NCBI GenBank assembly: GCA_002839855.1
Contig: PGYV01000006.1
Span: 16,367-80,366, forward strand
DNA: 64,000 nt
DNA from: Candidatus Goldiibacteriota bacterium HGW-Goldbacteria-1
GTDB lineage: Bacteria > Oederibacteriota > PGYV01
Direction: 5' to 3'
The position numbers and the translations under genes are program-made. Each line of letters opens with the position of its first letter. Within the stretch, counting starts at the first letter, position 1. This document shows positions 5,111-31,420 of the stretch, one piece after another. The notes beneath the pieces were generated by a model that made no database searches, was not told the origin of the DNA, and saw nothing but the letters and a program-made list of their open reading frames with translations.

Positions 5111-6103
5111 ATGAGCATTACAATAAAAGATGTTGCCAAAAAAGTCGGGGTTACCGCAACCACGGTATCAATGGTAATCCGCAACGACCCAAGGATAAGC
5201 GATAAAACCAAAGAGAAAGTTTTAAAGGCTGTAAAAGAGATGAATTATTATCCCAATCAGATTGGGCGAAGCCTTGTTAAAGGCAAGACAAATGTAATAG
5301 CCGTTGCGTCATCAATGTTTTATGGCCCTTTTAAAATAGATATCTTTAACGGGATAGACACCGGTGTCGTTGAAACGGATTATACCACACTGCATTTTTC
5401 AGCGCGCGCGGATCAGGAAGCTGAATTGTTAAAGGAAATTGTTTATGGAAGGCGTGCAGACGGCGTAATTGCAATTAACATGAGGACAGAAAAAGAAACA
5501 CTGCAGGCATACAATGATACCGGCCTGCCGATAGTATTTGTTGAAGAGACATTTGACGGTTTTGCCGGAGTTAAAGGCGACAGTTTTAAAGGCGCGTATA
5601 AAGCAACGGAGCGCTTTATTAAAACAGGAAAGAAAAACATAGGTTTAATCAGCGCCGTGTACACTCATCTTTCATGCGTGACCGACAGGGAGAAAGGTTT
5701 TATGCAGGCGCTGGCTGATAACGGGCTTAAATATGATGAAAGCAAGACACTGCGCAGTGCCGCTTATAATTTTCAGGAAGGGCAGGATTTGATGGACAAA
5801 ATTATAAATGATAAAATGCAGGTGGATGCGGTATTTTGCAGCGCCGGAGACCTTGTCGCAATGGGGATGATAAAAAGGGCCAAAGAAAAAGGCGTTAAAA
5901 TTCCCGATGATATTGCAATTATAGGATACGACGGGCTTGATACGGGCTCTCTTGTAACACCTTCGCTTACCACTTTAAAGCAGCCGGTTGTGGATATGGG
6001 GCGCGCTGCTTTTGATATGTTAAAGAAACTTATGGAAGAAAAGAATGTCAAAAAAGAAATAAAGGTATTTGAACCTGAACTGATTATCAGGGAAAGCGCT
6101 TAA
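5111..6103 (+). CDS. LacI-family transcriptional regulator
   Basis: The N-terminal HTH reads IKDVAKKVGVTATTVSMVIRN. A periplasmic-binding-protein-like effector domain follows. Confidence 0.9.
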   Translation: MSITIKDVAKKVGVTATTVSMVIRNDPRISDKTKEKVLKAVKEMNYYPNQIGRSLVKGKTNVIAVASSMFYGPFKIDIFNGIDTGVVETDYTTLHFSARADQEAELLKEIVYGRRADGVIAINMRTEKETLQAYNDTGLPIVFVEETFDGFAGVKGDSFKGAYKATERFIKTGKKNIGLISAVYTHLSCVTDREKGFMQALADNGLKYDESKTLRSAAYNFQEGQDLMDKIINDKMQVDAVFCSAGDLVAMGMIKRAKEKGVKIPDDIAIIGYDGLDTGSLVTPSLTTLKQPVVDMGRAAFDMLKKLMEEKNVKKEIKVFEPELIIRESA

Positions 6104-15485: not shown

Positions 15486-15609
15486 CCTTTGTTAAACATT
15501 TAACCGCAACTTTTTAACGTTAAAACTGTCAAAAGTATGGTAATATACAGGAACGTGATTTTTCATTATGAAATGGCTTAAAATACCATGCAAAAAAGAG
15601 GAGATTTCA

Positions 15610-18546
15610 ATGAAAAAATCTTTAAACGCCTTATTAATGGTGTTTATCTTTATTCCTTTATTATATGCCACGCCTGTATCTGAAAACGGCGAGCTTAAGC
15701 TTGTCGGAAATCAGCTTTCCAATTCATGCGGAAATCCGGTCCAATTAAAAGGAATGTCCAGCATGGGGCTTCAGTGGTACGGCGTTGGTCAGTGTCTGGA
15801 TACCGCCACTATGGATTATATGGTTAATACAATTGGAATTGATGTATTCAGGGCTGCTATGTATGTTGATGAAGGCGGATACCTGACTGATAAAACGAAA
15901 TACTCTAATATGGTAAATACAATTGTTGACTGGTGCGAAGCACGGGGTATTTATGTGATAATTGACTGGCATATGCTTACGCCGGGCGATCCTAATGCTC
16001 ATATTAATGAGGCCAAAACTTTTTTCGCGGAAATGTCATTAAGGCATAAAGATAAAAAGCACGTAATATATGAAATCTGCAACGAACCTAACGGCGTTTC
16101 GTGGTCAACTGTTCAGACTTACGCGAATATCATAATCCCCATAATCCGCGCAAATGACCCTGACACCATAATAATAGTAGGTACGCCTAACTGGTCACAG
16201 CTTGGTACTGATGTTGCAAATAATAAATTAAACTATACAAATATTATGTACACGTTTCATTTCTATGCCGCATCACATTCCACCGGCTTAGTTACGCCCT
16301 TTACCGATAAACTTCCAATTTTCTGTACAGAGTGGGGCATAAGCGATGCAAGCGGAAACGGCGCAATTGACACTGCAAACGCCACGAATTTTTTAAACAT
16401 ATTTGACGGAGCCAATACAGGCGGTCAGAAAATAAGCTGGGCAGGGTGGTCGTGGTGTGATAAAAACGAATCTTCTGCGTATCTGCAGGCAGGGTCGTGC
16501 CTCAGCAACCCGCCAAGGTTTACAACCGCGGGTAACTATATAATAGGCAAGATTCAGACGAATCCGAATAACTGGACAGCGTGTAACGCGCAGACTCCCA
16601 CTTTTACAAAAACAATAACACCGGGCGGGCCTACGTTTACACCCACCAGAACGCCCACTCCTTTTGCAAGTTTGTTGGTCAACTGTGCCGGGCCGCAGTA
16701 TACAAATGCGGAAGGCGTATGGCAGGCTGATAAAGCTTACGCGGCAGGAAGCTGGGGATATGTGGGTGGTACGGTTGTAAGCAGGGGAAGTGTGGCAATT
16801 GGCAATACCACAGATGACACGCTGTATCAGACTGAACGTTATGCGGACCCGGTGGAATACAGGTTTGATATTCCTAACGGGACATATTCGGTTACGTTTA
16901 AAATGTGTGAATCTTATTGGGGAAACACGACAGGCGGAAACGGAAGCAGGATATTTGACATAGTAGCGGAAAACAATACTGTAGTAAACAACCTTGATTT
17001 GTACGCGGTGGCGGGATATAACAATGCTTATGACGTAACGGTCAATATTACCGTAAATGACGGGCAGCTTAATATATCAATGCCTGCTGATGTTGATAAC
17101 GGGCTTATTAACGCGATAAAAATTGTAAACGCGGCTTCTGTGACAAACACTCCCACAAGGACCAATACGTTTACCGCCACAAGGACGCATACAAATACGT
17201 TTACAAAAACATTCACGCACACTTTTACAAGGACGAATACTTTTACCGCGACAAGGACAAACACCTTTACCGCGACAATTACTCATACTTTTACAGCCAC
17301 AAGGACAAATACGCCCGTACCTCCCACAAACACGTTTACAAATACGGCTACAAGGACATATACGCCGGTACCTCCCACAAACACATTTACAAATACGGCG
17401 ACAAGGACATATACGCCGGTACCTCCCACAAACACATTTACAAATACGGCTACAAGGACATATACTCCTGTGCCGCCAACAAGCACATTTACTGACACAG
17501 CCACAAAGACAAATACGCCCGTTCCGCCTACAAACACGTTTACTAAAACGGCTACAAATACTGCAACAAACACATTTACAAATACGGCAACTAACACAGC
17601 CACAAAAACAAACACGCCTGTGCCGCCGACAAACACATTCACGAACACTGCCACAAAGACAAACACGCCGACTGTTACGGAAACACCTATCCCGGGCAGC
17701 ACTGATACGTTTACACATACAATAACAAATACATTTACAAAAACAAATACGTTTACAAATACGCATACTGCAACTGATACATTTACGCCTGTTCCGCCCA
17801 CAAGTACGTTCACAAACACGGCGACAAATACATTTACAAATTCCAATACCGCCACCAATACAAATACCGCCACAATTACAAACACGCCTCCGCCGGGAAG
17901 CACAAATACGTTTACGCACACAATAACAAATACATTTATAAATACGGCCACAAATACGTTCACGTCAGTGCCGCCGACAGCCACGCATACATATACAAGG
18001 ACGTTTGTAAATACGGCCACAAACACTTTCACGTCAGTGCCGCCGACAGCCACGCATACATTTACAAGGACGTTTATAAATACGGCCACAAATACGTTCA
18101 CGTCAGTGCCGCCGACAGCCACGCATACGTTTACCGTTTCTTATACTGAAACAGCCGTTGTTTTTACCCCCACATATACCTTTACGGCAACCGTAACTGT
18201 TGTGTTTACAGGTACGCCAACGCCGGTTGCTACTGAAGGCAAAAAAGCCGAAATTAAAGATGTTGATGTTTATCCGGTTCCTTTTGGAAAAAAAGGGAAC
18301 GTATATTTTGAATTTACCCTTACCAAAAGCATGAACTCCGTTGAGCTGAAGATTTATTCTTCGGGTTACAGGCTGTTAAAGAGAGTTGATGTTTCTTCGG
18401 CATGCGTTCCCGGAAGAAAGAAGAGCGCAATAGCGGCAGGGGAATTTGTAAATCTTGCAAATGGGACGTATTATTTTGTACTGGAAGGTAATAGCGCGGA
18501 CGGATATGTGAGAAGCAGGACAGAGAAGATGATAATTTTAAAATAG
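15610..18546 (+). CDS. secreted GH5 endoglucanase with a malectin-like CBM, a ~360-aa T-X/PVPP repeat region and C-terminal sorting domain
   Basis: RBS AGGAG precedes the ATG at 15610. GH5 hallmarks are [11 protein letters not shown] and FCTEWG. The malectin-like domain reads [10 protein letters not shown]...TERYADP. The repeats [17 protein letters not shown] occur 3 times. The C-terminal domain lies at 18240-18543. Confidence 0.85.
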
Positions 18547-18849: not shown

Positions 18850-21800
18850 ATGAAAAAAGGGATACTGAAATTACTTACAGGGCTTTTAATATTAATCCCG
18901 TCGTTTATATTCTCTGCGGATTCTCAGGTTAGGGTAAATTCTGTGGGATTTCTTCCTGCAAATGACAAAGGGGCGTCGGTCTCTACGGCGGTTTCGGGCT
19001 TCAACAAACGCTGTTGTTTTTTCTTCAACCGCCGCTAATATCACCGGGCCGGTTAATGCAACTGATTCCAATGAAACTGTTTATAAACTTAATTTTACCT
19101 CTTTTACAACACCCGGCACCTATTATGTTGATGTGACCGGCGTCGGCAGGTCGGTTAATTTTACTATAGCGGATAATGTATATAATGATGCTTATATTAC
19201 TTCTTATAAATCCATGTATTACTGGCGCTGCGGAATGGCTGTCAGCGCTGTTACAAACGGGCAGACTTTCGGGCACGGCGCGTGCCATACAAATGACGCG
19301 AATCAGAACTACATAGGATTTGGAAGCAATATTAGGGACGGAAAAGGCGGCTGGCATGATGCCGGAGATTTTAACAAATATATAGTTAACGCAGGCATAA
19401 CAATGGGTATGTTCTTCATGGCGTGGGAACATTACGGAAGCGTACTGAACAATATCCCGCTTACATACATGCCGAATACAGTTGCAGGTTATCCGGAGTA
19501 TAATGTATCGGCGTATCCTGATTTTCTGAAAGAATTAAGGTGGGAAATGGACTGGGTTTTAAAAATGCAGTATCCGGACGGTTCCGGTAAAGTTTCCCAT
19601 AAATTAAGCACCCTGAATTTCGGCGGTTTTATAATGCCGGAAACAGAAACCGCAACCCGCTATTATGTTGACTGGGGTTCTGCGGCTACCGCTGATTTTG
19701 TGGCGATGTGCGCAATGGCTGCCAGAATTTTCTACCCGTATGACCCTGTGTACGCGCAGAAATGCCTTGACGCGGCATGGGTAAGTTATAATTTTCTGCG
19801 CACAAATACGGCGAATAAAAACCCGGATCAGTCCGCATTTACAACCGGAGGATATGGGACAACAGACAGCGACGACAGGCTATGGGCTGCAGCTGAAATG
19901 TGGGCCACGACAGGTGATGCCAATGCAAAGACAGACCTTGATAACAGGGCAAATGCTTATTCCGATAAAACGGATGAGGATTTTGACTGGGGCAACGTAA
20001 AAAATCTGGGCATGTACACGTATTTGATGTGCACAAGGACAGGCAAGAACACAGCTATTGTAAATGATATACAGGCTGATTTGATTGCCGATGCAAACAC
20101 TATAGTTACAAAGAAAAATAATCACGCGTATTCAAGGCCTTTGGGCACAAATTTTTACTGGGGCTGCAATGGTTCGGTAGCAAGGCAGACAATGCTGCTT
20201 CAGATTGCCAATATGGTGTCGCCCAACGCTAACTATGTTAATACAGCGCTTGATTCGCTTGGATATCTTCTTGGAAGAAACCCTTTCAGGCGTTCATATG
20301 TAACGGGAATCGGGACAAGCCCTCCGATGTACCCGCATGACAGGACGTCCGGCGCGGATGGTATAACAAATCCTGTGCCGGGATATCTTGTAGGCGGTTC
20401 TAACGGAACCAACAGCGGCGACCCCGCTTTAACCGCAATGCCGGCAGGCCTTGGTGCCGCTATGTACTGGACAGATAATCAGGATTCATATGCCTCAAAT
20501 GAAATTGCTATAAACTGGCAGGGAGCGCTTGTTTACGCGCTTGCGGGTTTTTGTAAAAATCCGTCAGTACCCACATTCACGCCCACTAATACAAATACGC
20601 CCGACGGCCCCACATATACTTTCACAAATACGGCTACGCAGACAAATACGTACACGCCGTCGCATACATTCACGGTTACACCCACTGTTGTATTACCTGT
20701 GGCAATTTGTTCCGGGCCATCTTTGATAATTGACGGAAGCCTGGATGAAGCTTTCTGGCAGGCAGGGGAATGGACTGAGGTTTTAAAAGTGGTTACGGGT
20801 ACAATGCCTGCGCCCGTATCCGCGCGTTATAAAGTGCGGTATGATGATTATGGTTTTACCCTTGGCGTGCAGATTACTGACAGCGCGCTTTACAATGATT
20901 CCGGCACAGAATGGTATAACGACGATTCGGTTGAACTTTACCTTGATGTTAATAATGATAAAAGCACAACATACGACGCTGATGATTATCAGTTCAGCGT
21001 GCGCTACGTCGAAGGTATAATAAGGGAACAAAGCGGTGATCCCGGAAACGCTTACGCTGCTTACGGCTATATTGTGGGAGGTTACACGGTTGAAATTGAT
21101 GTGCCATGGGCCGATTTGGGAGTTACCCCTTTTGAAGGCATGGTAATGGGTTTTGACGTAGGCGTAAATTATGACCAGGACGGCGATGAAAGGGAAGGTG
21201 TTTTGATGTGGAACGGCACAAGCACCAACTGGCAGAACCCTTCAAATTTCGGCGAAGTAACCCTTGGCGCGCCGTGCGGTGCCGCGGAAACGCCCACGCA
21301 CACTTATACCAACACATCCACTTACACGCATACTGCGTCATACACATCAACCTTTACAAACACAGCAACAGTGCCTACAAACACGTTTACAAGCACAGCA
21401 ACAGTGCCTACAAACACGTTTACAAACACAGCAACAGTGCCTACAAACACGTTTACAAGCACAGCAACTGCACCTACATATACTTTTACGAGCACAGCAA
21501 CTGCACCTGCAAATACGTTTACGAGCACAGCAACTGCACCTGCAAATACGTTTACGAGCACAGACGTTTACAAATACGGCAACTGTTCCGACAAATACTT
21601 TCACTAACACGGCAACTGTACCGACAAATACATTTACTAATACTGCAACAGTCCCTACAAATACGTTTACAAGTACTGTAACAGTCCCTACAAATACGTT
21701 TACAAGTACAGTAACAGTATCTACAAATACATTTACAAGCACAGCAACAGCGCCGACAAATACTTTCACTCAAACTCCAACAATTCCAACGCCTACATAT

Positions 21801-22139
21801 ACTGTAACCCCTGTGATACAGGAAGGGGATAAACAGAAGATTACGGATGTAATGGTTTTCCCGCACCCATATAACGCTTCCAAAAATCCTTACGCCGGCA
21901 TAAAGTTTAACCTTTCCAAAAGCGCGGCTGTGGTAAAGATAAGATTATATTCATCAGCTTTCAGGTTGTTGGAAGAATCGGACATAGCAAAAAACTGCCA
22001 CCCGGGCAGTAATATCGGCGCGATAAGCGGAAGAAGGCTGTCAACAATGTCCAACGGGACGTATTATTTTGTCCTGATCTCGGAAGATAATGCAACAGAG
22101 GTCAGAAGTAAAGTGGATAAGATGATAATAATGAAGTAA
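18850..22139 (+). pseudogene. GH9 endoglucanase - CBM9-like - T-X repeat - C-terminal-domain gene interrupted by two frameshifts
   Basis: Three consecutive ORFs in different frames together give a complete protein. The pieces are a signal peptide + Ig-like N-terminus (frame 1), a GH9 domain with GGWHDAGDFNKY plus a CBM9-like domain IDGSLDEAFW (frame 2), and TFTNTATVPTN repeats plus the C-terminal domain (frame 3). The shifts fall at about 18990-19000 and at 21563/21564, where one 33-nt repeat unit is truncated to 16 nt. Confidence 0.7.
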
Positions 22140-22355: not shown

Positions 22356-22448
22356 CTCTTTCCTCAATTTTTCTGCTATAATCATCACAACTTTATTCAT
22401 TTGTTTTTGTCCAAAAACGAATTAACGCCTTATATCAAAGGAGAAAAG

Positions 22449-25400
22449 ATGACACTTAAACGGGTTTTAGCCACGGTATTTCTTCTTTCCATATTAAACT
22501 CTTACATTATTAGTGCGCCGATAACAGAGCAGATTATCGTTGACCAGATAGGGTACAGGACAACTGCCGACAAATGGTTTATGATTGCGGATCCAAGGAC
22601 GGGTTATAACGCAGCTGTTACATACGTTCCGGGTGCAAGCGTGGAATTAAGGCGCGCATCTGATGATATATCGGTTATGACTATCCCCGTTACCGCATGG
22701 AATGCCGGCGCGGAACATTCCCAGTCCGGCGATGTGGTATGGCAGGGAAATTTTTCCGCATATACAACGCCCGGTACTTATTACATATTTGACACCACAA
22801 ACAATACTCAGTCATTTGATTTTGATATTGCGGATGATACGTATAACACAATTCTTGAAAGCTCTGTTAAATCCTATTATTACCAGCGGTGCGGTACGGC
22901 AATTACCGGCGCTCACGGCGGTACGTGGACACATGCCGCTTGCCATACAACCACTCAACAGACTGCGCGCCTTTACGACGCATCACTTGGCGGCGATCAG
23001 GGAGCGGCAACCGCACGCGACATTACCGGCGGATGGCACGATGCCGGCGATTACAGAAAGTACACATCTTGGATGGCTGTTATAGTATGGGACTTGGCTT
23101 ATGCTTACGAATGGAACCCGGACGCATTTTCGGATGCTACCGGAATTCCGGAATCTAACAATGGCGTACCGGATATATTAGATGAAATAAAATGGGAACT
23201 TGACTGGCTTTTGAGAATGCAGGGTACAAACGGCGCGCTTTATTCAGGCGCATTTGTCGTGACAGGAATAAACGGAACAGGAAACGGTATCGGAGACCCG
23301 TCAACAGAGAACAGGCAGTATTTTTATGCCAACTATTCAACAGCGGCCACAGGTTCCGGCTGTTCGTCATTCGCAATAGGCGCTCGCCTTTTTGCGCCTT
23401 ATGAAGCAGCTTATCCGGGTTATTCCGCCGCGCTTCAAATCGCCGCCGAAAACGCGTGGGCTTATCTTCAGGCAAATCCTTCGAATATTACTTACAATCA
23501 CACCGGGTTTGATAACGCCAACGCCAATAAAGGGGTTGATGCTGACAGGGGGCACAGGATAATGTCGGCAGCGGAACTATACAGGCTGACCGGAGATACA
23601 GATTATAGAACTTATATTGACGATCACTACGATGACCCGCCTTCTACCGGAGTGCATAATCCGATTACAAGCGGATATTTTGAAACAAGCGGTTCTTATG
23701 AAATTCAAAGGGGATTGATTTCTTACTGCCTGGTGCCGGGCGCCACGTCATCAGTTGTAACCGCGGTAAAAAATTCAATCAATCAGGGTATACAGAACCA
23801 GGCTTATGGCCAGCGCAATAACGACCCATATAAGTCTTATACTTGGGATGGCCATCACTGTTGGGGTTCAAACGGAATCAAATCTGAATGGGGCAATCTT
23901 TGCGTCTTTGGTAATAAGTTAAATGTTAACGCCGGGCTTTCTGCGGCATATTTAAAAACAGGCGAAGAGTATCTTCATTACATTCACGGGCGCAACCCTA
24001 ACGCGTTTAATTACATTACACAGTCTCAGCTTTACGGCGCGGATAAGCCGATAAAGCAGATATATCACGGCTGGTTTCACCACGGCACGGTTTGGGATAT
24101 AAATCCAGCGCCCGGAATATTATCCGGCGGGCCTAACTGGTACTTTGTTCCTGACGCTTCGTATATAGGCACAATAGAACCGCCGCAAAATCAGCCGCCC
24201 ATGAAATCATATAAGGATTGGAACACAAGCTGGCCGGAAAATTCATGGGAAGTAACGGAAAATTCAACGGGCTACCAGTCGCGATACACTCTGCTTGCTT
24301 CGTTTTTCGCCTCTGCCGCGGGCCCGACAGCCACGCCCACATATACTTTTACCTATACCGATACAATAACACCCGGCGGGCCTACGTTTACTTTTACGCA
24401 CACGCCCACTGAAACATTTACAAACAGCCACACTTCCACACAGACGCCCACGCCTGTAAGCGTGCTTTTTAATACCTGCGATACCATAAATTACAACGGC
24501 GCCTGGACAGAAACCGCTTCTACAATATCCATCAACACAATTGAAACAGCGGCCATTACGCAGGGGACAGGCGCGCTTCAGATTGATGTTGAAACAATTG
24601 CGGCATGGCAGGACGGAATAGCATCACTTGGCGGTTTTGTTCCGTCAGACTGGAGCGGTATTGCACGCATTGAAATGGATGTTTATATCGCGCCCGGCGA
24701 AGAACCTTGGGGCGCGGCAGATACTTATCATCAGCTTGTATTAGTTGTGGATTCAAATGATACTTCAAAATGGTACAGGACTATTACAGCAAATCAGAAT
24801 ATTACAACAGGCATGAACCACCTGGTGTTTACAATAAACTGGGCACTTGATTTGGACCCTGACCCGATACTGCCCATAGACGCAATTAGCAATCTTACAT
24901 TTATTATAAATTCAGAGACAGGAAATACAGGGACGTTATATTTTGACAATATGATCCTTTATTCAACAGCATCCCCGGAGACACCAACCGCCACGATAAC
25001 ACTTACCCCGGTAATTTCCGCGACGGCAACAGCGACAGTTACAATGACAGAAGTATTATCCGCCACGGCGACATTAACAGCAACTGCAACAGTTACAATG
25101 ACAGAGGTGTTTTCGTTAACTATAACCAAGACGCCTACCGCGACAGTAACTGTAACACAGGATATATCATCCACATCGACGCCGACGGCAACGGCAACAG
25201 GAACTTCGACGGTGGAGGTCTCCGCTACATCAACACAGACAGCAACCCCCACGGCAACGCATACGGAAGAATTATCCGCGACAGTTACAAATACAATCAC
25301 TGTAACAATAACAATTACTTCGTCCTTAACTTTTACGGCAACGCCGACCATAACGCTGACGCCGGTTATTTCCGCTACAAATACGGTTACAAGGACAATT

Positions 25401-25871
25401 ACTATCACGTCATTTACATCTCCGACACCAACAGTTACGCCTTCTATAACAGCCACTTTTACACGTACAATCACGGTGACGGTTACTCCCACTGTTACAA
25501 ATATTATAAACACATTAACCCCAACCGTTACGCTTACACCGGCAATTCAGGAAGGGGATAAACAGGAAATTACAGATGTATTTATTTACCCGCATCCGTT
25601 TAACCCTGAATCTGACGAGATGAAAATGTTTATCAGATACAAGCTTTCAAAAAGTACAGGGTTGGTGAAACTGCGTTTATATTCGTCGGCGTTCAGGCTG
25701 ATAAGCGAAACAGAAATATCCCAAAACTGCACCCCGGGAATAAACACCGGAAGCGTAAACAGGGGAAAACTGAAAAACCTTTCCACAGGAACGTATTATT
25801 TTGTGTTAACCACAGATAACGGCGAAGGCGAAATTAAAAGCAAGGTGGATAAACTGATTATAATGAAGTAG
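22449..25871 (+). CDS. secreted GH9-family glycoside hydrolase with N-terminal Ig-like domain, an unclassified CBM-like domain, a T/V-rich linker and C-terminal sorting domain
   Basis: RBS AAAGGAGAAAAG precedes the ATG. GGWHDAGDYRKY marks the GH9 domain. The CBM-like domain lies at about 24465-24965. A TATxTxT linker lies at 24966-25540. The C-terminal domain lies at 25545-25868. Confidence 0.8.
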   Translation: MTLKRVLATVFLLSILNSYIISAPITEQIIVDQIGYRTTADKWFMIADPRTGYNAAVTYVPGASVELRRASDDISVMTIPVTAWNAGAEHSQSGDVVWQGNFSAYTTPGTYYIFDTTNNTQSFDFDIADDTYNTILESSVKSYYYQRCGTAITGAHGGTWTHAACHTTTQQTARLYDASLGGDQGAATARDITGGWHDAGDYRKYTSWMAVIVWDLAYAYEWNPDAFSDATGIPESNNGVPDILDEIKWELDWLLRMQGTNGALYSGAFVVTGINGTGNGIGDPSTENRQYFYANYSTAATGSGCSSFAIGARLFAPYEAAYPGYSAALQIAAENAWAYLQANPSNITYNHTGFDNANANKGVDADRGHRIMSAAELYRLTGDTDYRTYIDDHYDDPPSTGVHNPITSGYFETSGSYEIQRGLISYCLVPGATSSVVTAVKNSINQGIQNQAYGQRNNDPYKSYTWDGHHCWGSNGIKSEWGNLCVFGNKLNVNAGLSAAYLKTGEEYLHYIHGRNPNAFNYITQSQLYGADKPIKQIYHGWFHHGTVWDINPAPGILSGGPNWYFVPDASYIGTIEPPQNQPPMKSYKDWNTSWPENSWEVTENSTGYQSRYTLLASFFASAAGPTATPTYTFTYTDTITPGGPTFTFTHTPTETFTNSHTSTQTPTPVSVLFNTCDTINYNGAWTETASTISINTIETAAITQGTGALQIDVETIAAWQDGIASLGGFVPSDWSGIARIEMDVYIAPGEEPWGAADTYHQLVLVVDSNDTSKWYRTITANQNITTGMNHLVFTINWALDLDPDPILPIDAISNLTFIINSETGNTGTLYFDNMILYSTASPETPTATITLTPVISATATATVTMTEVLSATATLTATATVTMTEVFSLTITKTPTATVTVTQDISSTSTPTATATGTSTVEVSATSTQTATPTATHTEELSATVTNTITVTITITSSLTFTATPTITLTPVISATNTVTRTITITSFTSPTPTVTPSITATFTRTITVTVTPTVTNIINTLTPTVTLTPAIQEGDKQEITDVFIYPHPFNPESDEMKMFIRYKLSKSTGLVKLRLYSSAFRLISETEISQNCTPGINTGSVNRGKLKNLSTGTYYFVLTTDNGEGEIKSKVDKLIIMK

Positions 25872-26130: not shown

Positions 26131-26216
26131 AAACCATTTGACACTTTTGCCCTAATTTTGTATATTGTTTAAACGGTTAAACAATACGCCTTTATTAATA
26201 TTATCGGGAGAAAACT

Positions 26217-29200
26217 TTGCTGCGCAGAACGCTTTTTACAGTGATGGTTTTGCTTGTTTTTATTACCGGCCTGCGCGCTTCTTCTATAATACCAACCCAG
26301 GCGTGGTCGCGCGATGTGGGCGCTTCCGGCTATACCGACGGCGCGCCTATAGGCGGCTTTGGCGCAGGAACAATTACATGGAAAAATAACGGGGATTTTT
26401 ACCTTTCACGCCTTGACATTGGCGCCGGCGATGAAACGGGAACTTTTACCGCGGCCAACACTAACTGCAAATTCTTTATGTATCAGAAACCGGCGTCAGG
26501 TGCGGCTACAGTACAGCGCCTTGATTCTGCTAACTTAGGCACAGGGCAGGCTGTTTACAATTCGCTTTTTCCTTTTGCGTGGGTCAACTATTCCGGCAGC
26601 AGGTTTAATGTAAAAGCAAAAGTGACGCAATACTCTCCGCTTATTCCCGAAGATTATCAGCGCGTAAGTTATCCTGTGGGCGTTTATGAATGGGAGCTTA
26701 CAAACCCCACAACCCAGAACTATGACGCGGCAATAATGTTAACGTGGGAAAATCCCTATGGTTCTTCGGCTTCGCTTGTAACGGACGGAAATTATACCGG
26801 CCTTGTTTTAAACAAAGCAGGCACAGGCACGCCAACGCTTGAAACACAGGGTGAGTTCTGCCTTGCGTCTTTATCATCGGCGAACGTTACAGTCACAAGA
26901 ATGTCAGCGGCAAACAGGGCCGCCCTTGAAACTGATTTTTCCACGGACGGCGCGCTTTCAAATACAGTCGGCAGCAACACAATAGGCGCGGTTGCTTTTA
27001 AGGTCACCCTTGCGCCGGGTCAGACAGTAAGGATTCCAATAATATTATCGTGGGACATTCCAATAACACAGTCGCAGTATAACGCCAAGTGGTACAGAAA
27101 ATATACGCAGCACTTTAACCGCCTTGGGACAAATTCGTGGGCAATAGCGCGTGAAGCGCTTGCTGACAGGTCTGTGTGGGAACAGAAACTTGATGAATGG
27201 ATTCACAGGATAACCGATAACCCCAATTACCCCGAATGGCTTAAATCCATGCTGTTAAATGAAATGTATATTTATTTTACCGCAGGCACATACTGGGAAG
27301 CGGGCGCTGCTTCAGGGCAGGCGGACAACCCTTCGGAAAATATGTTTTCGCATCTGGAATCATATATTTATGATTTTTACGGCACGTCAGACGTAAGGTT
27401 TTACGGTTCATGGGCTTTGTTCATGAACTGGCCGGAAATTGACAAGCAGTGCATAAAACAATTTTCAGACTCTGTTTACAACAACCGCTCTGACAGGCCC
27501 GCGGGATTAGGGACAACCGCGCACGATATAGGTTCAAGGGCCGATGTCTTTACACGCTGGAACGCTTACGTGTACAGGGATTCCACAAACTGGAAAGATT
27601 TAAATTCCAAACTTGTGCTTATGGTTTACCGCGACTGGCACTTAACAGGCAGGACAGATTCGGCTTTTCTTGATTACTGCTGGCAGCCGTGCAAAATAGC
27701 AATGGAAAAAACCGCAACGCAGGACGCGGACGGCGACGGGCTGCCGGATTCCAACGGTATAGACCAGACTTATGATGACATGGATTTAACAGGCGACACT
27801 TCATACTGCGGCGGGCTGTATCTTGCGTCATTGCTTGCGGCAAAAGAAATGGCGCTGGCAAAGGGCGAAACCGCGCTTGCGCAGACGTATCAGGACAGGT
27901 TTGATTTCGCGCAGCCCAACTTTGAATCACAGCTGTGGACGGGGCAATATTACAGGATTGATACTGACAGCCATGATCCAACCAGGATAATGTCAGACCA
28001 GCTGTGCGGTCAGTGGTATAACAAAGCGCTTGGGCTTCCCGGAATAGTGTCAGACGCCAATGCGGTTTCTTCTTTTCAGAAAATATACGATAATAATTTT
28101 GCCAAATTCGGGAACGGCACGCACGGTGTAATTAACGTAATGAACGCGAACGGTACAATAGACACAACTTCAAGCCAGACAGAAGAATGCTGGGTTGGCA
28201 CTTCGTGGGGCGTTGCCGCGGGAATGATTCATCAGGGAATGGAAGCGCAGGCTGACGATATAGGCCAGTCGCTTTTAAACACAATCTGGAATACCGGGCA
28301 GTACTGGTTTAGGACACCCGAAGCGTTCCGCGTTAACCTTACAATACCAAGGGCGTTTTATTATATGAGGGCAACAGCGGTGTGGGCTGTTAAACACGCG
28401 TATGATTCCGTACATCCCGTGCCCACTTATACGCCTTCGCCCACTGCCACGAATACCAATACCTGGGACCCCGCGTATCCAACATATACTTTTACCAATA
28501 CAGCAACGGCAACCAATACAAGTACTTATACCCATACAGCCACAGTAACGCCTACATTTGCCGACATCAGGGTAAACTGCGGCGGGGCGGCACACAATGA
28601 CGGAACGCATATATGGGCGGCGGATTATGGTTACACCGCGGGTACGGCGGCAGGGCCTTCGGGTGCGGTTGCGGGCGCGCCTGCAGGGCAGGGAACGCTT
28701 TATCAGACCGAAAGATGGGGAATGTCCGCGTACACTTTTAATAACATTCCTTTTGGCACTTATGATATAACTTTAAAATTTGCGGAGACGTATTCGGGCG
28801 CTTATTCTGTGGGTGCAAGGGTATTTGATGTATTTATAGAAGGCACACGCGTACTTGATGATTTTGATATTTTTGCCGAAGCCGGCGCAAGCACGGCGCT
28901 GGATAAAGTGTTTAGCGCCGTTCAGGTTTCTGACGGAGTCTTAAATATTACTTTTTCGGCATCTGTTGACAACGCTAACATTACCGCCATTGAAGTTGTG
29001 CTTGTTTCGCAGATGCCCACTTCAACGCACACTTCAACCGCCACGCGCACGCCCACCGCCACTTCTACTTATACAGCCACGGACACACAGACACCTGACC
29101 CGTTATGGACAAAGACTTTTACCTATACATATACGGACACGGCAACAAACACGGCAACTTATACTTATACAAATACATATACAATCACAAACACGCCTAC

Positions 29201-30932
29201 AGCCACGTTTACCGCCTCAATCACGCCCACGCGGATTGATGACCTTTTTATTGACTGCGCGTCCAATGATAATTACACAGACGGGCAGGGAAATATCTGG
29301 CTTGCGGATCAGGCGTATGGCGGCGGCAACGCGTGGGGATATGTCACAGCAGGTTCCACAAATGACTGGTACACCGGCGAGATTACCTTAACAAATGATG
29401 ACGAACTGTATCAAAGCGAAAGGTGGTCGGGCAGCGGCAATACACTTTTACAGTATAACGCGGATACGGGAAATGGGATGTTTGAAGTTGAACTTCATTT
29501 TACAGAAGGGTTCTGCACGGCTGCGGGATGCAGGCAGTTTAATATCGCCCTTGAATCGCTTACAGTTGAAACCAATCTTGATATATACGCGGAAACAGGC
29601 GCGCAGCGTGCGGCGCTTGTAAAAACTTATTACGTTGAAGTTACAGACGGCACTTTAAATATTAATCTTACTCAGGGAAGCGCGGACTGGCCGCTTATTA
29701 ACGCGATAAGGATAAGTACGTATTATCCTCCCACAAACACGCCTACAAATACAGTCCCCGAGACACCCACATATACTTTCAGCGCCACAAGTACGTTCAG
29801 TAATACGCATACATATACAAATACACAAACTTATACTCAGACTCCCGTATCTACAAGCACTTATACTGATACCGCCACGCACACTTACACGGACACATAT
29901 ACTGAAACCGCCACAAACACACCTGTAAATACAGACACAAATACAAACACCGCCACATACACGCATACATACACGGTAACTGATACAGCCACAGACACGC
30001 ATACAGCAACCATAACTTATACCCCTTCGGATACGGTTACAGGCACACCGCCGTCAACGCACACGTTTACGGACACGCCCACAGAGACTTACACATATAC
30101 ATTCACACAGACTTATACTGAAACTCCTGCAGACACGTTTACGCACACCCCTGAAAATACCAATACAAATACACCCCAGGATACTTTCACACATACTTAT
30201 ACAGCCACATACACTTATACTTCAACAAATACAAACACAAGCACAGAAACATATACGCCTACTATTACGAATACCTTTACAGACACAATTACACCCGGCG
30301 GCCCCACGCTTACGTTTACTGATACGCCGACAGAAACCGGCACACCCACGCACACACATACAAGCTCAAATACAAACACCGCAACAAATACAAACACAGT
30401 TACTGATACGGCGACAAATACAGCAACTGATACCGTAACCCATACAAATACATACACCGCAACATTTACCGCCACATACTCACAGACACCGTCATATACA
30501 TCATCACTTACAGAAACTCCTGTTTTTACGCAGACACACACGTTTACTTATACGGCCACAGAAACGCCTGTCTTTACAGCAACACCGACATATACAAAGG
30601 TTCCCGCGGACAAACAGGAAATTACAGAAGTACTGCCATACCCAAATCCGTTTAACCCGTCGCGTTATAACTATGTAAGGATATCATTTAAAATAGCGCA
30701 GCCGGATACAGAACGCCTTTCGTTGAGGATATATTCATCGTCATACAGATTAATAAGGGAAGTATCGTACGAACGTGATGCCCTTACGCAGATTGTGAAC
30801 AGGGGATACATACAATACGAATCCAAACACCTTGAAACTTTATCCAACGGCACATACTATTTTGTCCTTTTAGCCGGAGAACAGGGCGACGAAACAAGAA
30901 GCAGGGTGCAGAAGATTATAATTATTAAATAG
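26217..30932 (+). CDS. secreted GH116-like (GBA2/DUF608-type beta-glucosidase family) enzyme with two malectin-like CBMs, a ~290-aa alternating-Thr region and C-terminal sorting domain
   Basis: A TTG start follows RBS GGGAGAAAA. The N-domain motifs PIGGFGAGTITW and LFPFAWVNYSG resemble the GH116 N-terminal domain and are followed by an (alpha/alpha)6-like region. Malectin-like domains IRVNCGGAAH...TERWG and IDCASNDNYTDG lie at about 28565-29010 and 29240-29710. The C-terminal domain lies at 30600-30929. Confidence 0.6.
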   Translation: MLRRTLFTVMVLLVFITGLRASSIIPTQAWSRDVGASGYTDGAPIGGFGAGTITWKNNGDFYLSRLDIGAGDETGTFTAANTNCKFFMYQKPASGAATVQRLDSANLGTGQAVYNSLFPFAWVNYSGSRFNVKAKVTQYSPLIPEDYQRVSYPVGVYEWELTNPTTQNYDAAIMLTWENPYGSSASLVTDGNYTGLVLNKAGTGTPTLETQGEFCLASLSSANVTVTRMSAANRAALETDFSTDGALSNTVGSNTIGAVAFKVTLAPGQTVRIPIILSWDIPITQSQYNAKWYRKYTQHFNRLGTNSWAIAREALADRSVWEQKLDEWIHRITDNPNYPEWLKSMLLNEMYIYFTAGTYWEAGAASGQADNPSENMFSHLESYIYDFYGTSDVRFYGSWALFMNWPEIDKQCIKQFSDSVYNNRSDRPAGLGTTAHDIGSRADVFTRWNAYVYRDSTNWKDLNSKLVLMVYRDWHLTGRTDSAFLDYCWQPCKIAMEKTATQDADGDGLPDSNGIDQTYDDMDLTGDTSYCGGLYLASLLAAKEMALAKGETALAQTYQDRFDFAQPNFESQLWTGQYYRIDTDSHDPTRIMSDQLCGQWYNKALGLPGIVSDANAVSSFQKIYDNNFAKFGNGTHGVINVMNANGTIDTTSSQTEECWVGTSWGVAAGMIHQGMEAQADDIGQSLLNTIWNTGQYWFRTPEAFRVNLTIPRAFYYMRATAVWAVKHAYDSVHPVPTYTPSPTATNTNTWDPAYPTYTFTNTATATNTSTYTHTATVTPTFADIRVNCGGAAHNDGTHIWAADYGYTAGTAAGPSGAVAGAPAGQGTLYQTERWGMSAYTFNNIPFGTYDITLKFAETYSGAYSVGARVFDVFIEGTRVLDDFDIFAEAGASTALDKVFSAVQVSDGVLNITFSASVDNANITAIEVVLVSQMPTSTHTSTATRTPTATSTYTATDTQTPDPLWTKTFTYTYTDTATNTATYTYTNTYTITNTPTATFTASITPTRIDDLFIDCASNDNYTDGQGNIWLADQAYGGGNAWGYVTAGSTNDWYTGEITLTNDDELYQSERWSGSGNTLLQYNADTGNGMFEVELHFTEGFCTAAGCRQFNIALESLTVETNLDIYAETGAQRAALVKTYYVEVTDGTLNINLTQGSADWPLINAIRISTYYPPTNTPTNTVPETPTYTFSATSTFSNTHTYTNTQTYTQTPVSTSTYTDTATHTYTDTYTETATNTPVNTDTNTNTATYTHTYTVTDTATDTHTATITYTPSDTVTGTPPSTHTFTDTPTETYTYTFTQTYTETPADTFTHTPENTNTNTPQDTFTHTYTATYTYTSTNTNTSTETYTPTITNTFTDTITPGGPTLTFTDTPTETGTPTHTHTSSNTNTATNTNTVTDTATNTATDTVTHTNTYTATFTATYSQTPSYTSSLTETPVFTQTHTFTYTATETPVFTATPTYTKVPADKQEITEVLPYPNPFNPSRYNYVRISFKIAQPDTERLSLRIYSSSYRLIREVSYERDALTQIVNRGYIQYESKHLETLSNGTYYFVLLAGEQGDETRSRVQKIIIIK

Positions 30933-31420
30933 AGGCTTGGACGCTTAGATGCTTAGATGCTTGGCAACATAGAGTCCGCGCGTTTTTGCTTTTGCTCTTG
31001 TAGGGATAGCGCTCCCGCGCTGTCCGGCTCTTTTTGTTTGGTATTAAATGTTTGGTAGGCGCACCTTTTAAGGTGCGGTAGTTGATTTTTTCTTTATGTT
31101 CTGGATCTTTTGTCCTGGTAGACGCGGGTCTTTAGCCCGCGGCAGTTATCTTGTCTTGGAACTTGTAGGGACGGCGTTCCCTCGCTGTCCGGTTCTTTTG
31201 TTGTCTGGTATTAAATGTTTGGTAGGCGCACCTTTTAAGGTGCGGCAGTTGATTTTAATCTGTGAATTAAATCAAAACAACGCGCCCTGAAAGGACGCGG
31301 CTACCACTGCCAAAACAAACTGACCCGCCGCCCCTCGCGTTTTAAACCGTCCCTCCGTGCATCTGTCCCTCCGTCCCTCGTGTTTTCCCAAGCCTCTAAC
31401 CATCCAAGCTTCCAAGCCTC
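30933..31420. repeat. composite palindromic intergenic element containing a duplicated ~95-nt unit
   Basis: Arms GAGGCTTGGACGCTTAGATGCTTAGATGCTTGG (30933-30969) and CCAAGCCTCTAACCATCCAAGCTTCCAAGCCTC (31385-31420). Hairpin A at 31054-31083 and 31220-31251. Hairpin B at 31116-31148. The unit CTTGTAGGGA..CGCTGTCCGG.TCTTTTGTT..GGTATTAAATGTTTGGTAGGCGCACC occurs twice. Confidence 0.8.

What the first reader, a model, noticed from the sequence alone, without database searches (positions are those of the whole stretch)
26290..28420. GH116-like (GBA2-type) catalytic region secreted and fused to two malectin-like CBMs
Characterised bacterial and archaeal GH116 / DUF608 beta-glucosidases are mostly standalone enzymes. 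Here the GGxGxG / FPxAW N-domain and the (alpha/alpha)6 region carry a signal peptide. They are followed by two INCGG malectin-like modules, a (TX)n region and the CTD. This implies an extracellular role on glucan rather than intracellular glucosylceramide or glucoside turnover.
Basis: partly seen in the sequence, partly recalled or inferred. Interest (0 to 1): 0.5.

Follow-up and report, generated by a model that had tools for sequence, protein, structure and literature searches.

The report
Secreted GH116 beta-glucosidase in cellulase cluster
This gene encodes a secreted enzyme of the GH116 beta-glucosidase family carrying two sugar-binding modules and a surface-export tail, placed last in a row of cellulase genes of an uncultured Goldbacteria-like bacterium, so it most likely trims cellulose fragments to glucose outside the cell, a role not yet shown by experiment for this family.

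Summary
Window 26217..30932 (+) is one intact 1571-aa ORF. It comprises a Sec-type signal peptide, the GH116 N-domain (Pfam 2.5e-52), the GH116 catalytic domain (6.6e-100), two malectin/CBM57 modules, three Thr-rich TxT linkers and a ~110-aa C-terminal domain. The nucleophile (E381), acid/base (D520) and every glucose-binding residue of the solved homologue TxGH116 are conserved. An AlphaFold model (pLDDT 94) superposes on TxGH116 at TM 0.93.

The gene closes a run of GH5 and GH9 cellulase genes that share the same linkers, malectins and C-terminal domain. It belongs to a distinct clade (51-75% identity; about 34-40% to TxGH116-type enzymes) in which nearly all full-length members have signal peptides. 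Within that clade GH116 carries the module of its neighbouring cellulases or of the host's cellulase system: malectin in Goldbacteria, CBM2 in another lineage, dockerin in a probable Acetivibrio cellulolyticus genome.

Best reading: a cell-surface or extracellular exo-beta-glucosidase/cellodextrinase that completes cellulose hydrolysis. The C-terminal domain resembles a type IX secretion (T9SS) sorting domain only weakly. Substrate and location are inferred, not shown. The family membership is known; the architecture is uncharacterised but already public and auto-annotated. Moderate interest.

The parts
26138..26166 (+). Promoter-like site TTGACA-N17-TATATT (11 of 12 matches) upstream of the gene
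   Evidence: Consensus scan, best site in the region. A consensus match only.
26206..26210 (+). Shine-Dalgarno GGGAG, 6 nt before the TTG start codon at 26217
   Evidence: Read directly from the sequence. Supports the TTG start over the ATG at 26244 used by a public gene call.
26217..26285 (+). Sec-type signal peptide, aa 1-23 (MLRRTLFTVMVLLVFITGLRASS), predicted cleavage before I24
   Evidence: n/h/c regions and the -3/-1 rule, read by eye. Homologues have a hydrophobic N-terminal segment ending just before the conserved IPxxAWSRD. SignalP was not run.
26340..27179 (+). GH116 N-terminal beta-sandwich domain, aa 42-321
   Evidence: Pfam PF12215, E 2.5e-52. Mostly beta strands in the AF2 model.
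27345..28391 (+). GH116 (alpha/alpha)6 catalytic domain, aa 377-725. It holds nucleophile E381 (27357-27359), acid/base D520 (27774-27776) and the glucose-binding residues D392, H436, T518, Q654, E657, W659, E702, R712 and R718
   Evidence: Pfam PF04685, E 6.6e-100. Alignment to TxGH116, E 7e-138. Residue roles taken from PMC10167657. The residues are invariant or nearly so in 58 sequences. Model TM 0.93 to TxGH116.
28413..28562 (+). Thr/Pro-rich linker 1, aa 733-782
   Evidence: 38% Thr.
28566..29006 (+). Malectin (CBM57-type) module 1, aa 784-930, with the RVNCGG motif
   Evidence: Pfam PF11721, E 8.3e-28. Animal malectin structures hit at E 3e-10. 51% identical to the second malectin of the GH9 enzyme at 11083-15168.
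29007..29231 (+). Thr-rich linker 2, aa 931-1005
   Evidence: 44% Thr.
29244..29708 (+). Malectin module 2, aa 1010-1164, second subtype (FIDCAS)
   Evidence: Pfam PF11721, E 2.8e-25. 44% identical to the first malectin of the GH9 enzyme at 11083-15168. Only 33% identical to module 1.
29721..30602 (+). Long TxT linker, aa 1169-1462 (294 aa, 43% Thr)
   Evidence: Composition and T-x-T periodicity.
30603..30929 (+). C-terminal beta-sandwich domain resembling a T9SS sorting domain, aa 1463-1571 (YPNPFNP ... RIYSS ... NGTYYFVL ... KIIIIK)
   Evidence: Related copies end eight other coding regions in the window. It matches the C-terminal ~100 positions of the NCBIfam PorU model at E 1.6e-5. A profile of these domains reaches proteins carrying PF18962/PF13860. 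AF2 model pLDDT 88; best PDB match is P. gingivalis PorU, TM 0.68.
31004..31025 (+). Terminator-like hairpin followed by a T-run, downstream of the stop codon
   Evidence: Consensus scan.

Best explanation
The gene encodes a secreted, modular enzyme of glycoside hydrolase family 116, in the TxGH116/GBA2 subfamily. Proposed mechanism:

1. Export. The Sec signal peptide takes it across the inner membrane. The C-terminal beta-sandwich domain, which resembles a type IX secretion sorting domain, then directs it across or onto the outer membrane. This step is inferred.
2. Reach and targeting. A ~300-residue Thr-rich spacer, possibly O-glycosylated, holds the enzyme away from the cell. Two malectin-type binding modules, one of each of two subtypes, keep it on the same substrate as the neighbouring GH9 and GH5 endoglucanases, which carry the same modules. 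The binding specificity is inferred.
3. Catalysis. The catalytic domain works as a retaining exo-beta-glucosidase. E381 attacks C1, D520 protonates the leaving group, and D392, H436, T518, E702, R712 and R718 hold the non-reducing glucose. It removes glucose from cellobiose and cellodextrins released by the cellulases. This finishes cellulose hydrolysis outside the cell and would relieve product inhibition.

What is shown: family membership, the catalytic machinery, the modular anatomy and the gene neighbourhood. What is inferred: substrate, cellular location and physiological role.
For: Family and fold.
- Pfam GH116N and GH116 catalytic domain.
- E 7e-138 to TxGH116.
- AF2 model pLDDT 94, TM 0.93 and 34% identity to TxGH116, ahead of TeGH116, ExoMA2 and GH52.

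Active site. All TxGH116 catalytic and -1 subsite residues named in PMC10167657 are present. That includes the two residues that bind the glucose 6-OH (E777/R786 = E702/R712). Ten of the eleven listed active-site residues are invariant in the 57 sequences most similar to this one. The eleventh, E657, is replaced in two of them.

Activity of the closest characterised relative. TxGH116 hydrolyses cello-oligosaccharides of DP2-6 and laminari-oligosaccharides of DP2-5 at similar rates.

Context in the window. LacI regulator, GH5, GH9, GH9 + 2 malectin, GH5 + malectin, GH9 + CBM9, GH9, then this gene. The GHs have N-terminal signal-like segments where the N-terminus is clear, plus Thr-rich linkers and the C-terminal domain.

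Shared modules. The two malectin subtypes are shared with the GH9 enzyme at 11083-15168.

Synteny. In the Goldbacteria/FCPU426 contigs L001/L019 and L003, GH9-malectin lies directly before GH116-malectin. In L007 and L021, GH9-CBM9 (plus GH5 and LacI in L021) lies upstream of GH116-malectin.

Independent lineages.
- GH116-CBM2 sits inside an array of GH9-CBM3-CBM2, GH5-CBM2 and GH12-CBM2 genes.
- GH116-dockerin occurs in assembly GCA_000179595.2.
- Other clade members come from Sorangium and Byssovorax. Sorangium's cellulose-degrading potential is described in PMC12093494; that Byssovorax is cellulolytic is from my own knowledge.

Secretion.
- A signal-like N-terminus precedes the conserved IPxxAWSRD in nearly all full-length clade members.
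- A PorV/PorQ-family protein is encoded at 52312-54255, scoring 131.6 bits against a cut-off of 90.
- The C-terminal domain model's best structural match is P. gingivalis PorU. The NCBIfam hit maps it to the C-terminal ~100 positions of the PorU model.
Against: - No activity, binding or localisation data exist for any member of this clade. Literature searches found none.
- Malectin/CBM57 specificity for cellulose or cello-oligosaccharides is not established. Animal malectin binds alpha-linked di-glucose (my own knowledge).
- One clade member lies next to a GH94-like gene and two GH16 genes, which is a beta-1,3 or mixed-linkage glucan setting. Two others have no glucanase neighbours. The clade is therefore not tied to cellulose everywhere.
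- This protein's C-terminal domain does not reach the curated cut-off of any T9SS sorting-domain model.
- No core T9SS genes other than the PorV/PorQ-like one were looked for outside the window.
- The gene has its own promoter-like site, with a terminator-like hairpin before it. Co-transcription with the cellulase genes is not implied.
Confidence: 0.7

Rival explanations
1. The enzyme is a secreted exo-beta-glucosidase whose main substrates are beta-1,3 or mixed-linkage gluco-oligosaccharides (laminarin, lichenan, callose or fungal wall fragments) rather than cellodextrins.
For: TxGH116 cleaves laminari-oligosaccharides as well as cello-oligosaccharides. The Bacillota clade member L022 (56% identity) lies between a GH94-like gene and two GH16 genes, with a two-component regulator and an ABC permease.
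Against: In this window, in four related Goldbacteria-type contigs and in the CBM2 lineage, the neighbours are GH5, GH9 and GH12 cellulase families and CBM2/CBM3/CBM9. No GH16, GH17, GH55 or GH81 domain was found among the window ORFs scanned. The two activities are not mutually exclusive.
Confidence: 0.15
2. The enzyme acts directly on the polymer. Held on cellulose by its binding modules, it removes glucose from non-reducing chain ends (glucan 1,4-beta-glucosidase). It would then supply the exo-acting component in a system where the window shows no GH6, GH7 or GH48 enzyme.
For: It carries two binding modules plus a long spacer, which is unusual for an enzyme that acts on soluble sugars. Clade relatives carry CBM2, a module that binds crystalline cellulose (my own knowledge), or a dockerin. 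No GH6, GH7 or GH48 domain was found among the window ORFs scanned. TxGH116 activity does not fall with chain length up to DP6.
Against: The characterised GH116 enzymes I know of act on small substrates, and I know of no polymer activity reported for the family. The -1 subsite is unchanged. Model coordinates could not be inspected, so no cleft opening could be shown. Only 64 kb of the genome was examined, so exo-cellulases may lie elsewhere.
Confidence: 0.12
3. The enzyme is a glycolipid hydrolase like GBA2, acting on glucosylceramide or other beta-glucosyl lipids of neighbouring cells or of its own envelope.
For: It belongs to the same GH116 subfamily as human GBA2 (E 2e-83 to PDB 9wiz). JGI annotates many relatives as 'non-lysosomal glucosylceramidase'.
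Against: Those names are transferred by homology. The gene context is cellulases. The appended modules are carbohydrate-binding modules and dockerin. The closest characterised relative is an oligosaccharide beta-glucosidase.
Confidence: 0.03
4. The protein stays in the periplasm. The C-terminal domain is only a structural Ig-like domain, so cellodextrins are taken up first and cleaved inside the outer membrane.
For: The C-terminal domain misses the curated cut-offs of the T9SS sorting-domain models. As far as I know, type IX secretion has not been established for Goldbacteria.
Against: The same C-terminal domain is on the GH5 and GH9 cellulases, which must reach insoluble cellulose. A PorV/PorQ-family gene is in the window. 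The domain resembles the C-terminal part of PorU by sequence and model. The ~300-aa spacer and the binding modules make sense only outside the cell.
Confidence: 0.1

Closest known systems
TxGH116, beta-glucosidase of Thermoanaerobacterium xylanolyticum (PDB 5BVU and related entries)
   Same: It has the same two-domain GH116 fold (TM 0.93). The nucleophile, acid/base and all -1 subsite residues are identical. Its measured activity is exo-hydrolysis of beta-1,4 and beta-1,3 gluco-oligosaccharides.
   Different: Identity is only 34% in the structural alignment. The catalytic region here is about 50 residues shorter through several loop deletions, one directly before H436. TxGH116 has no binding modules, Thr-rich linkers or C-terminal sorting-like domain. 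Its gene context was not compared.
Human GBA2 (non-lysosomal glucosylceramidase, GH116)
   Same: Same family and subfamily (E 2e-83), with the same catalytic motifs (LE nucleophile, DQTYD acid/base).
   Different: GBA2 is a cytosol-facing, membrane-associated enzyme acting on a glycolipid (my own knowledge). It has no signal peptide and no binding modules. Here the setting is bacterial cellulases.
Uncharacterised clade relatives: Sorangium cellulosum So ce56 SCE_RS22635, the dockerin-bearing GH116 in GCA_000179595.2 (Acetivibrio cellulolyticus CD2, from memory), GH116-CBM2 on locus L026, and Goldbacteria GH116-malectin proteins
   Same: They share 51-75% identity, the N-terminal signal followed by IPxxAWSRD, and an invariant active site. 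Several lie in cellulase clusters and carry the local cellulase-targeting module. PMC12093494 mentions the Sorangium-Acetivibrio link in passing.
   Different: None has been characterised. Of the listed relatives with both ends of the gene, this protein has the longest Thr-rich spacer. It carries two malectins, as some but not all Goldbacteria relatives do.
Extracellular or cell-bound beta-glucosidases and cellodextrinases of families GH1 and GH3 in cellulolytic bacteria and fungi (for example periplasmic GH3 BglB of Cytophaga hutchinsonii, and engineered cellulosome-tethered BglA of Clostridium thermocellum; my own knowledge)
   Same: The proposed role is the same: converting cellobiose and cellodextrins to glucose close to the cellulases and relieving product inhibition.
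   Different: The fold and family are unrelated (GH116 is a beta-sandwich plus an (alpha/alpha)6 domain). Here the tethering is natural, through malectin modules and a sorting-like C-terminal domain.

Membership tests
Glycoside hydrolase family 116 (TxGH116/GBA2 subfamily) | N-terminal beta-sandwich domain (Pfam PF12215) | tested here: met
   E 2.5e-52, 178.8 bits against a cut-off of 30.2, aa 42-321.
Glycoside hydrolase family 116 (TxGH116/GBA2 subfamily) | (alpha/alpha)6 catalytic domain (Pfam PF04685) | tested here: met
   E 6.6e-100, 335.3 bits against a cut-off of 26.3, aa 377-725, covering the full profile.
Glycoside hydrolase family 116 (TxGH116/GBA2 subfamily) | Catalytic nucleophile Glu (TxGH116 E441) and acid/base Asp (D593) | tested here: met
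   E381 lies in HLE and D520 in DQTYD, and both align to E441 and D593. Both are invariant in 58 sequences.
Glycoside hydrolase family 116 (TxGH116/GBA2 subfamily) | Glucose-binding -1 subsite (TxGH116 D452, H507, T591, E777, R786, R792) | tested here: met
   D392, H436, T518, E702, R712 and R718 are all present and invariant.
Glycoside hydrolase family 116 (TxGH116/GBA2 subfamily) | Three-dimensional fold matching solved GH116 structures | tested here: met
   AF2 model pLDDT 94. Foldseek TM 0.93 and rmsd 2.5 A to TxGH116. GH52 reaches only TM 0.67-0.69.
Glycoside hydrolase family 116 (TxGH116/GBA2 subfamily) | Retaining beta-glucosidase activity | not testable with these tools
   Needs an enzyme assay.
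Malectin / CBM57 carbohydrate-binding module | Match to Pfam PF11721 above the curated cut-off | tested here: met
   Two copies scoring 97.8 and 89.6 bits against a cut-off of 23. Module 1 hits animal malectin structures at E 3e-10.
Malectin / CBM57 carbohydrate-binding module | Demonstrated glycan binding, and which glycan | not testable with these tools
   No characterised bacterial relative was found. Ligand residues could not be mapped reliably.
Type IX secretion (T9SS) type A C-terminal sorting domain | Match to TIGR04183 or PF18962 above the curated cut-off | tested here: not met
   No hit for this protein's C-terminal domain in Pfam. In NCBIfam it matches only the C-terminal ~100 positions of the PorU model (E 1.6e-5, 22.8 bits). 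The neighbouring GH9's domain hits PF18962 at E 0.065.
Type IX secretion (T9SS) type A C-terminal sorting domain | Terminal ~100-aa Ig-like beta-sandwich resembling solved sorting domains | tested here: inconclusive
   AF2 model pLDDT 88. The best PDB match is P. gingivalis PorU at TM 0.68, E 6e-5. Other matches are generic Ig/FN3 folds. A profile of nine window domains reaches PF18962/PF13860 proteins at E 1e-9 to 1e-4.
Type IX secretion (T9SS) type A C-terminal sorting domain | T9SS machinery in the same genome | tested here: inconclusive
   A PorV/PorQ-family protein above cut-off lies at 52312-54255. SprA, PorK-N and PorU were not searched for outside the 64-kb window.
Sec-dependent secreted protein | Cleavable N-terminal signal peptide | tested here: inconclusive
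   The rule-based reading fits: two Arg, a 15-residue hydrophobic core, and A-S-S before I24. Clade homologues show the same layout. No dedicated predictor was available.

The most novel reading that the evidence does not exclude
This clade of secreted GH116 enzymes may be a so far unrecognised, recurrent component of bacterial cellulase systems. In each lineage it carries that lineage's own targeting device: malectin, CBM2 or dockerin. It could work at the cellulose surface either as a natural tethered beta-glucosidase that removes cellobiose inhibition, or as a glucose-releasing exo-glucanase. In the second case it would supply the exo-acting component in this cluster, where no GH6, GH7 or GH48 enzyme was seen. 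The dockerin form would be a native cellulosomal beta-glucosidase, something otherwise obtained by engineering (my own knowledge).
Probability: 0.2. Interest if true: 0.6.

Novelty: new variant of a known kind. Interest (0 to 1): 0.36.

Why it matters
The GH116 enzymes studied so far that I know of are single-module enzymes acting on small glucosides or glycolipids. If this clade works outside the cell as part of cellulase systems, it adds a third beta-glucosidase family (after GH1 and GH3) to extracellular cellulose breakdown.

It would also offer naturally substrate-tethered beta-glucosidases for enzyme cocktails. It would give bacterial malectin (CBM57) modules a testable ligand. Finally, it would help explain how little-known cellulolytic phyla such as Goldbacteria finish hydrolysis at the cell surface.

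The finding is incremental. The family, the fold and the chemistry are all known.

Tried and rejected
Literature. Searches for GH116 together with malectin, cellulosome, dockerin, or signal peptide/extracellular found only genome inventories. The same was true of a search combining Acetivibrio cellulolyticus, DUF608 and glucosylceramidase. None reported a characterised secreted or modular GH116. The Goldbacteria single-cell paper does not mention GH116, malectin or T9SS. The TxGH116 crystallisation paper (PMC4304745) is not held. So whether TxGH116 itself has a signal peptide was not checked.

C-terminal domain. A sequence search of PDB with it gave nothing meaningful. Only the structure-based search did.

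Sorangium locus. Its context could not be read because the high-GC sequence gives many overlapping spurious ORFs.

Model inspection. Model coordinates are not exposed to scripts. Pocket versus cleft geometry and the effect of the loop deletions could not be examined.

Malectin ligand residues. Mapping was abandoned because the numbering of the animal protein could not be tied to the alignment.

Rejected readings.
- GH52 or GH63 assignment: GH52 is only a distant fold match (TM 0.67-0.69) and no GH63 structure appears among the 50 matches listed.
- Beta-D-arabinofuranosidase of the ExoMA2 type: E 6.5e-14 over a partial alignment, 17% identity.
- Lipoprotein: there is no Cys in the N-terminal 80 residues.
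Full report
**1. What is there**

The flagged stretch (26290..28420) lies inside one uninterrupted ORF, 26217..30932 on the + strand, of 1571 aa. Pfam places these domains on it:
- the GH116 N-terminal domain at aa 42-321 (E 2.5e-52);
- the GH116 catalytic domain at aa 377-725 (E 6.6e-100);
- two malectin domains. Scanned alone, the two modules score 8.3e-28 and 2.8e-25.

Between and after these lie three Thr-rich linkers, aa 733-782, 931-1005 and 1169-1462. They are 38-44% Thr with a marked T-x-T periodicity. A ~110-aa C-terminal domain follows.

The 'INCGG' motif is RVNCGG in module 1 but FIDCAS in module 2.

**2. Start codon and signal peptide**

The TTG at 26217 is preceded by GGGAG at a spacing of 6 nt. 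A near-consensus TTGACA-N17-TATATT lies about 50 nt upstream of the start. From this start the N-terminus is MLRR-TLFTVMVLLVFITGL-RASS, followed by IIPTQAW. That gives a charged n-region, a 15-residue hydrophobic core and an A-x-S cleavage site. There is no lipobox Cys.

A public gene call of the identical protein starts at the ATG nine codons downstream, giving 1562 aa. That start would remove the n-region, so I prefer the TTG.

Among the ~80 closest database clusters, nearly all full-length proteins have a hydrophobic N-terminal segment ending just before the conserved IPxxAWSRD. No SignalP-type tool was available, so the signal peptide is well supported but not formally predicted.

**3. Catalytic machinery**

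The region aligns with the solved beta-glucosidase TxGH116 over aa 38-732 at E 7e-138. Chain index plus 15 gives the published TxGH116 numbering. The correspondences are:

| TxGH116 residue | Role | Residue here |
|---|---|---|
| E441 | nucleophile | E381 |
| D593 | acid/base | D520 |
| D452 | glucose binding | D392 |
| H507 | glucose binding | H436 |
| T591 | glucose binding | T518 |
| E777 | glucose binding (6-OH) | E702 |
| R786 | glucose binding (6-OH) | R712 |
| R792 | glucose binding | R718 |

The roles come from PMC10167657. Q654, E657 and W659 match TxGH116 Q727, E730 and W732.

In an alignment of 58 sequences, ten of the eleven active-site residues are invariant in the 57 sequences most similar to this one. 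E657 is replaced in two of them. The residues that bind the glucose 6-OH are retained, which argues for glucose rather than xylose or arabinofuranose.

An AlphaFold model built on that alignment has pLDDT 94 and pTM 0.93. Foldseek against PDB gives:
- TxGH116: TM 0.93, 34% identity;
- TeGH116: TM 0.89-0.90;
- ExoMA2: TM 0.80;
- GH52 xylosidases: TM 0.66-0.69.

TxGH116 hydrolyses cello-oligosaccharides of DP2-6 and laminari-oligosaccharides of DP2-5 at about half the rate of pNP-glucoside. Membership in GH116, in the TxGH116/GBA2 subfamily, is met on every feature that could be tested.

**4. Surroundings**

Upstream on the same strand lie, in order:
- a LacI regulator (5111-6103);
- GH5 (6131-8191);
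- GH9 (8206-10473);
- GH9 with two malectins (11083-15168);
- GH5 with one malectin (15568-18546);
- GH9 with CBM9 (18962-21607);
- GH9 (22401-25871).

These enzymes have N-terminal signal-like segments where the N-terminus is clear. They also have Thr-rich linkers and a related C-terminal domain with the motifs YPNPFNP, RIYSS and NGTYYFVL and an ending of K-x-I-I-x-K. The same features are found on a 1616-aa ORF at 40420-45270.

The two malectins here belong to two subtypes that are only 33% identical to each other. Module 1 is closest to the second malectin of the GH9 enzyme (51%). Module 2 is closest to its first (44%). So both enzymes carry one module of each subtype, in opposite order.

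The GH116 gene has its own promoter-like site, and terminator-like hairpins lie on either side. I therefore describe a gene cluster, not an operon.

**5. Relatives**

A database search splits the hits sharply. About 79 clusters are 51-74% identical. Next comes the bulk of TxGH116-like enzymes at 34-37% by BLASTP. These score 38-40% in the multiple alignment.

The best named hits are from Candidatus Goldbacteria (Goldiibacteriota, FCPU426). Species-representative genomes add Sorangium species including So ce56, Byssovorax cruenta, a Spirochaetota MAG and a Bacillota MAG. Sorangium's cellulose-degrading potential is described in PMC12093494. That Byssovorax is cellulolytic is my own knowledge.

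About a third of the clade carries extra modules: malectin, CBM6/CBM35/F5-8C, CBM2 or dockerin, or is over 1000 aa long.

Gene contexts:
- Goldbacteria-type contigs. In L001/L019 and L003, GH9-malectin lies directly before GH116-malectin, with LacI genes nearby. L001/L019 also carries GH9-CBM9 and GH5 upstream. In L007 and L021, GH9-CBM9 lies upstream of GH116-malectin, plus GH5 and LacI in L021.
- Unrelated 2-Mb contig L026. GH116-CBM2 sits inside an array of four GH9-CBM3-CBM2 genes, three GH5 genes carrying CBM2 (one a mannosidase type) and one GH12-CBM2 gene.
- Assembly GCA_000179595.2, which I recall as Acetivibrio cellulolyticus CD2. The clade member ends in a dockerin. PMC12093494 independently notes that the So ce56 GH116 is closest to A. 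cellulolyticus proteins.
- Bacillota MAG L022. The neighbours are a GH94-like gene and two GH16 genes.
- Two further loci have no glucanase neighbours.

The pattern is that GH116 takes on whatever targeting device the local cellulase system uses. That is the strongest indirect evidence that it works alongside the cellulases. The L022 context shows the clade is not tied to cellulose everywhere.

At 50% clustering, the GH116 family has 302 clusters at E ≤ 1e-30. Only about five full-length representatives belong to this clade.

**6. C-terminal domain and export**

This protein's C-terminal domain misses the curated sorting-domain models. It does match the C-terminal ~100 positions of the NCBIfam PorU model (E 1.6e-5). 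A profile of the nine window domains reaches proteins that carry PF18962, PF13860 or CHU_C at E 1e-9 to 1e-4.

The AlphaFold model (pLDDT 88) is a beta-sandwich. Its best PDB match is P. gingivalis PorU (TM 0.68). The window also encodes a PorV/PorQ-family protein fused to an OmpA domain, scoring 131.6 bits against a cut-off of 90. An ORF at 82-921 has a tail that just reaches TIGR04183.

I therefore infer export to the cell surface that depends on this C-terminal domain. I do not file the domain as a T9SS type A sorting domain, because that test was not met.

**7. Mechanism, rivals and novelty**

Most likely (0.7) this is a surface-tethered or released retaining exo-beta-glucosidase/cellodextrinase. 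It would convert the products of the adjacent GH5 and GH9 enzymes to glucose.

Rival readings:
- a main role on beta-1,3 or mixed-linkage oligosaccharides (0.15);
- direct exo-attack on cellulose chain ends (0.12);
- periplasmic retention (0.1);
- glycolipid hydrolysis (0.03).

The literature searches found no characterised secreted or modular GH116. However, identical and similar proteins are already public and are auto-annotated as GH116.

I rate it a new variant of a known kind. The chemistry and fold are known. What is uncharacterised is the extracellular, binding-module-bearing, cellulase-associated form. Interest is moderate.

Noticed in passing
window 10757, 18677, 25920, 25982, 31117, 45450, 47566, 48186, 55230 (25-nt cores): A 25-nt hairpin-forming repeat, GGTAGACGCGGGTCTTTAGCCCGCG, occurs 9 times where 0 are expected. 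None lies inside a large annotated ORF. Two copies face each other just upstream of the GH116 gene and form a ~90-nt palindrome. It looks like a REP-like or terminator element.
   Followed up: partly
window 18962-22139: The GH9-CBM9 gene loses its reading frame inside its Thr-rich linker. Its C-terminal domain is readable only in another frame (21264-22139). This is either a frameshift from sequencing error in low-complexity DNA or a pseudogene.
   Followed up: no
window 52312-54255: The protein combines a PorV/PorQ-family barrel (NCBIfam 131.6 bits against a cut-off of 90), a FlgD-Ig-like domain and a C-terminal OmpA peptidoglycan-binding domain. This is an unusual fusion. It hints at a type IX-like export route in a Goldbacteria-type genome.
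   Followed up: partly
window 40420-45270: A 1616-aa secreted protein has the same Thr-rich linkers and C-terminal domain but no Pfam hit. Its only match is weak, to the NCBIfam F510_1955 glycosylhydrolase family (E 1.3e-13, below cut-off). It may be an uncharacterised glycoside hydrolase of the same system.
   Followed up: no
window 11083-15168 and 28566-29708: There are two malectin subtypes, about 33% identical to each other. The GH9 enzyme and the GH116 enzyme each carry one of each, in opposite order. This suggests two distinct binding specificities that are kept as a pair.
   Followed up: partly
window 1753-3321: A membrane protein gives a weak match to PMT_2, a mannosyltransferase-like family (E 1.2e-4, below cut-off), just upstream of the cellulase cluster. 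It could be linked to O-glycosylation of the Thr-rich linkers. This is speculative.
   Followed up: no
L026 1-18817 (ENA ERZ25039512 contig_42712): A dense array of nine secreted glycoside hydrolases, all ending in CBM2: four GH9-CBM3, three GH5, one GH12 and one GH116. This is an independent lineage in which GH116 is embedded in a cellulase array. The organism was not identified.
   Followed up: partly
L004 10001-12529 (GCA_000179595.2): A GH116 clade member ends in a type I dockerin, so it is presumably a cellulosome component. No paper in the library describes it.
   Followed up: partly
L022 6788-13825: In a Bacillota MAG the GH116 clade member lies between a GH94-like phosphorylase-type gene and two GH16 genes. 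This is a beta-1,3 or mixed-linkage glucan setting rather than a cellulose one.
   Followed up: partly
window 26217 vs 26244: The public gene call for this protein (1562 aa, JGI 3300038334) starts at an internal ATG and cuts off the charged start of the signal peptide. The TTG start has a proper Shine-Dalgarno. Automated signal-peptide surveys could therefore miss this protein.
   Followed up: yes
L007 (CALJNE010000084.1): A contig labelled 'uncultured Bacteroidales' carries GH9-CBM9 followed by GH116 with two malectins, 69% identical to the window protein. That is closer than some of the Goldbacteria/FCPU426-labelled contigs. The contig may be mis-binned.
   Followed up: no
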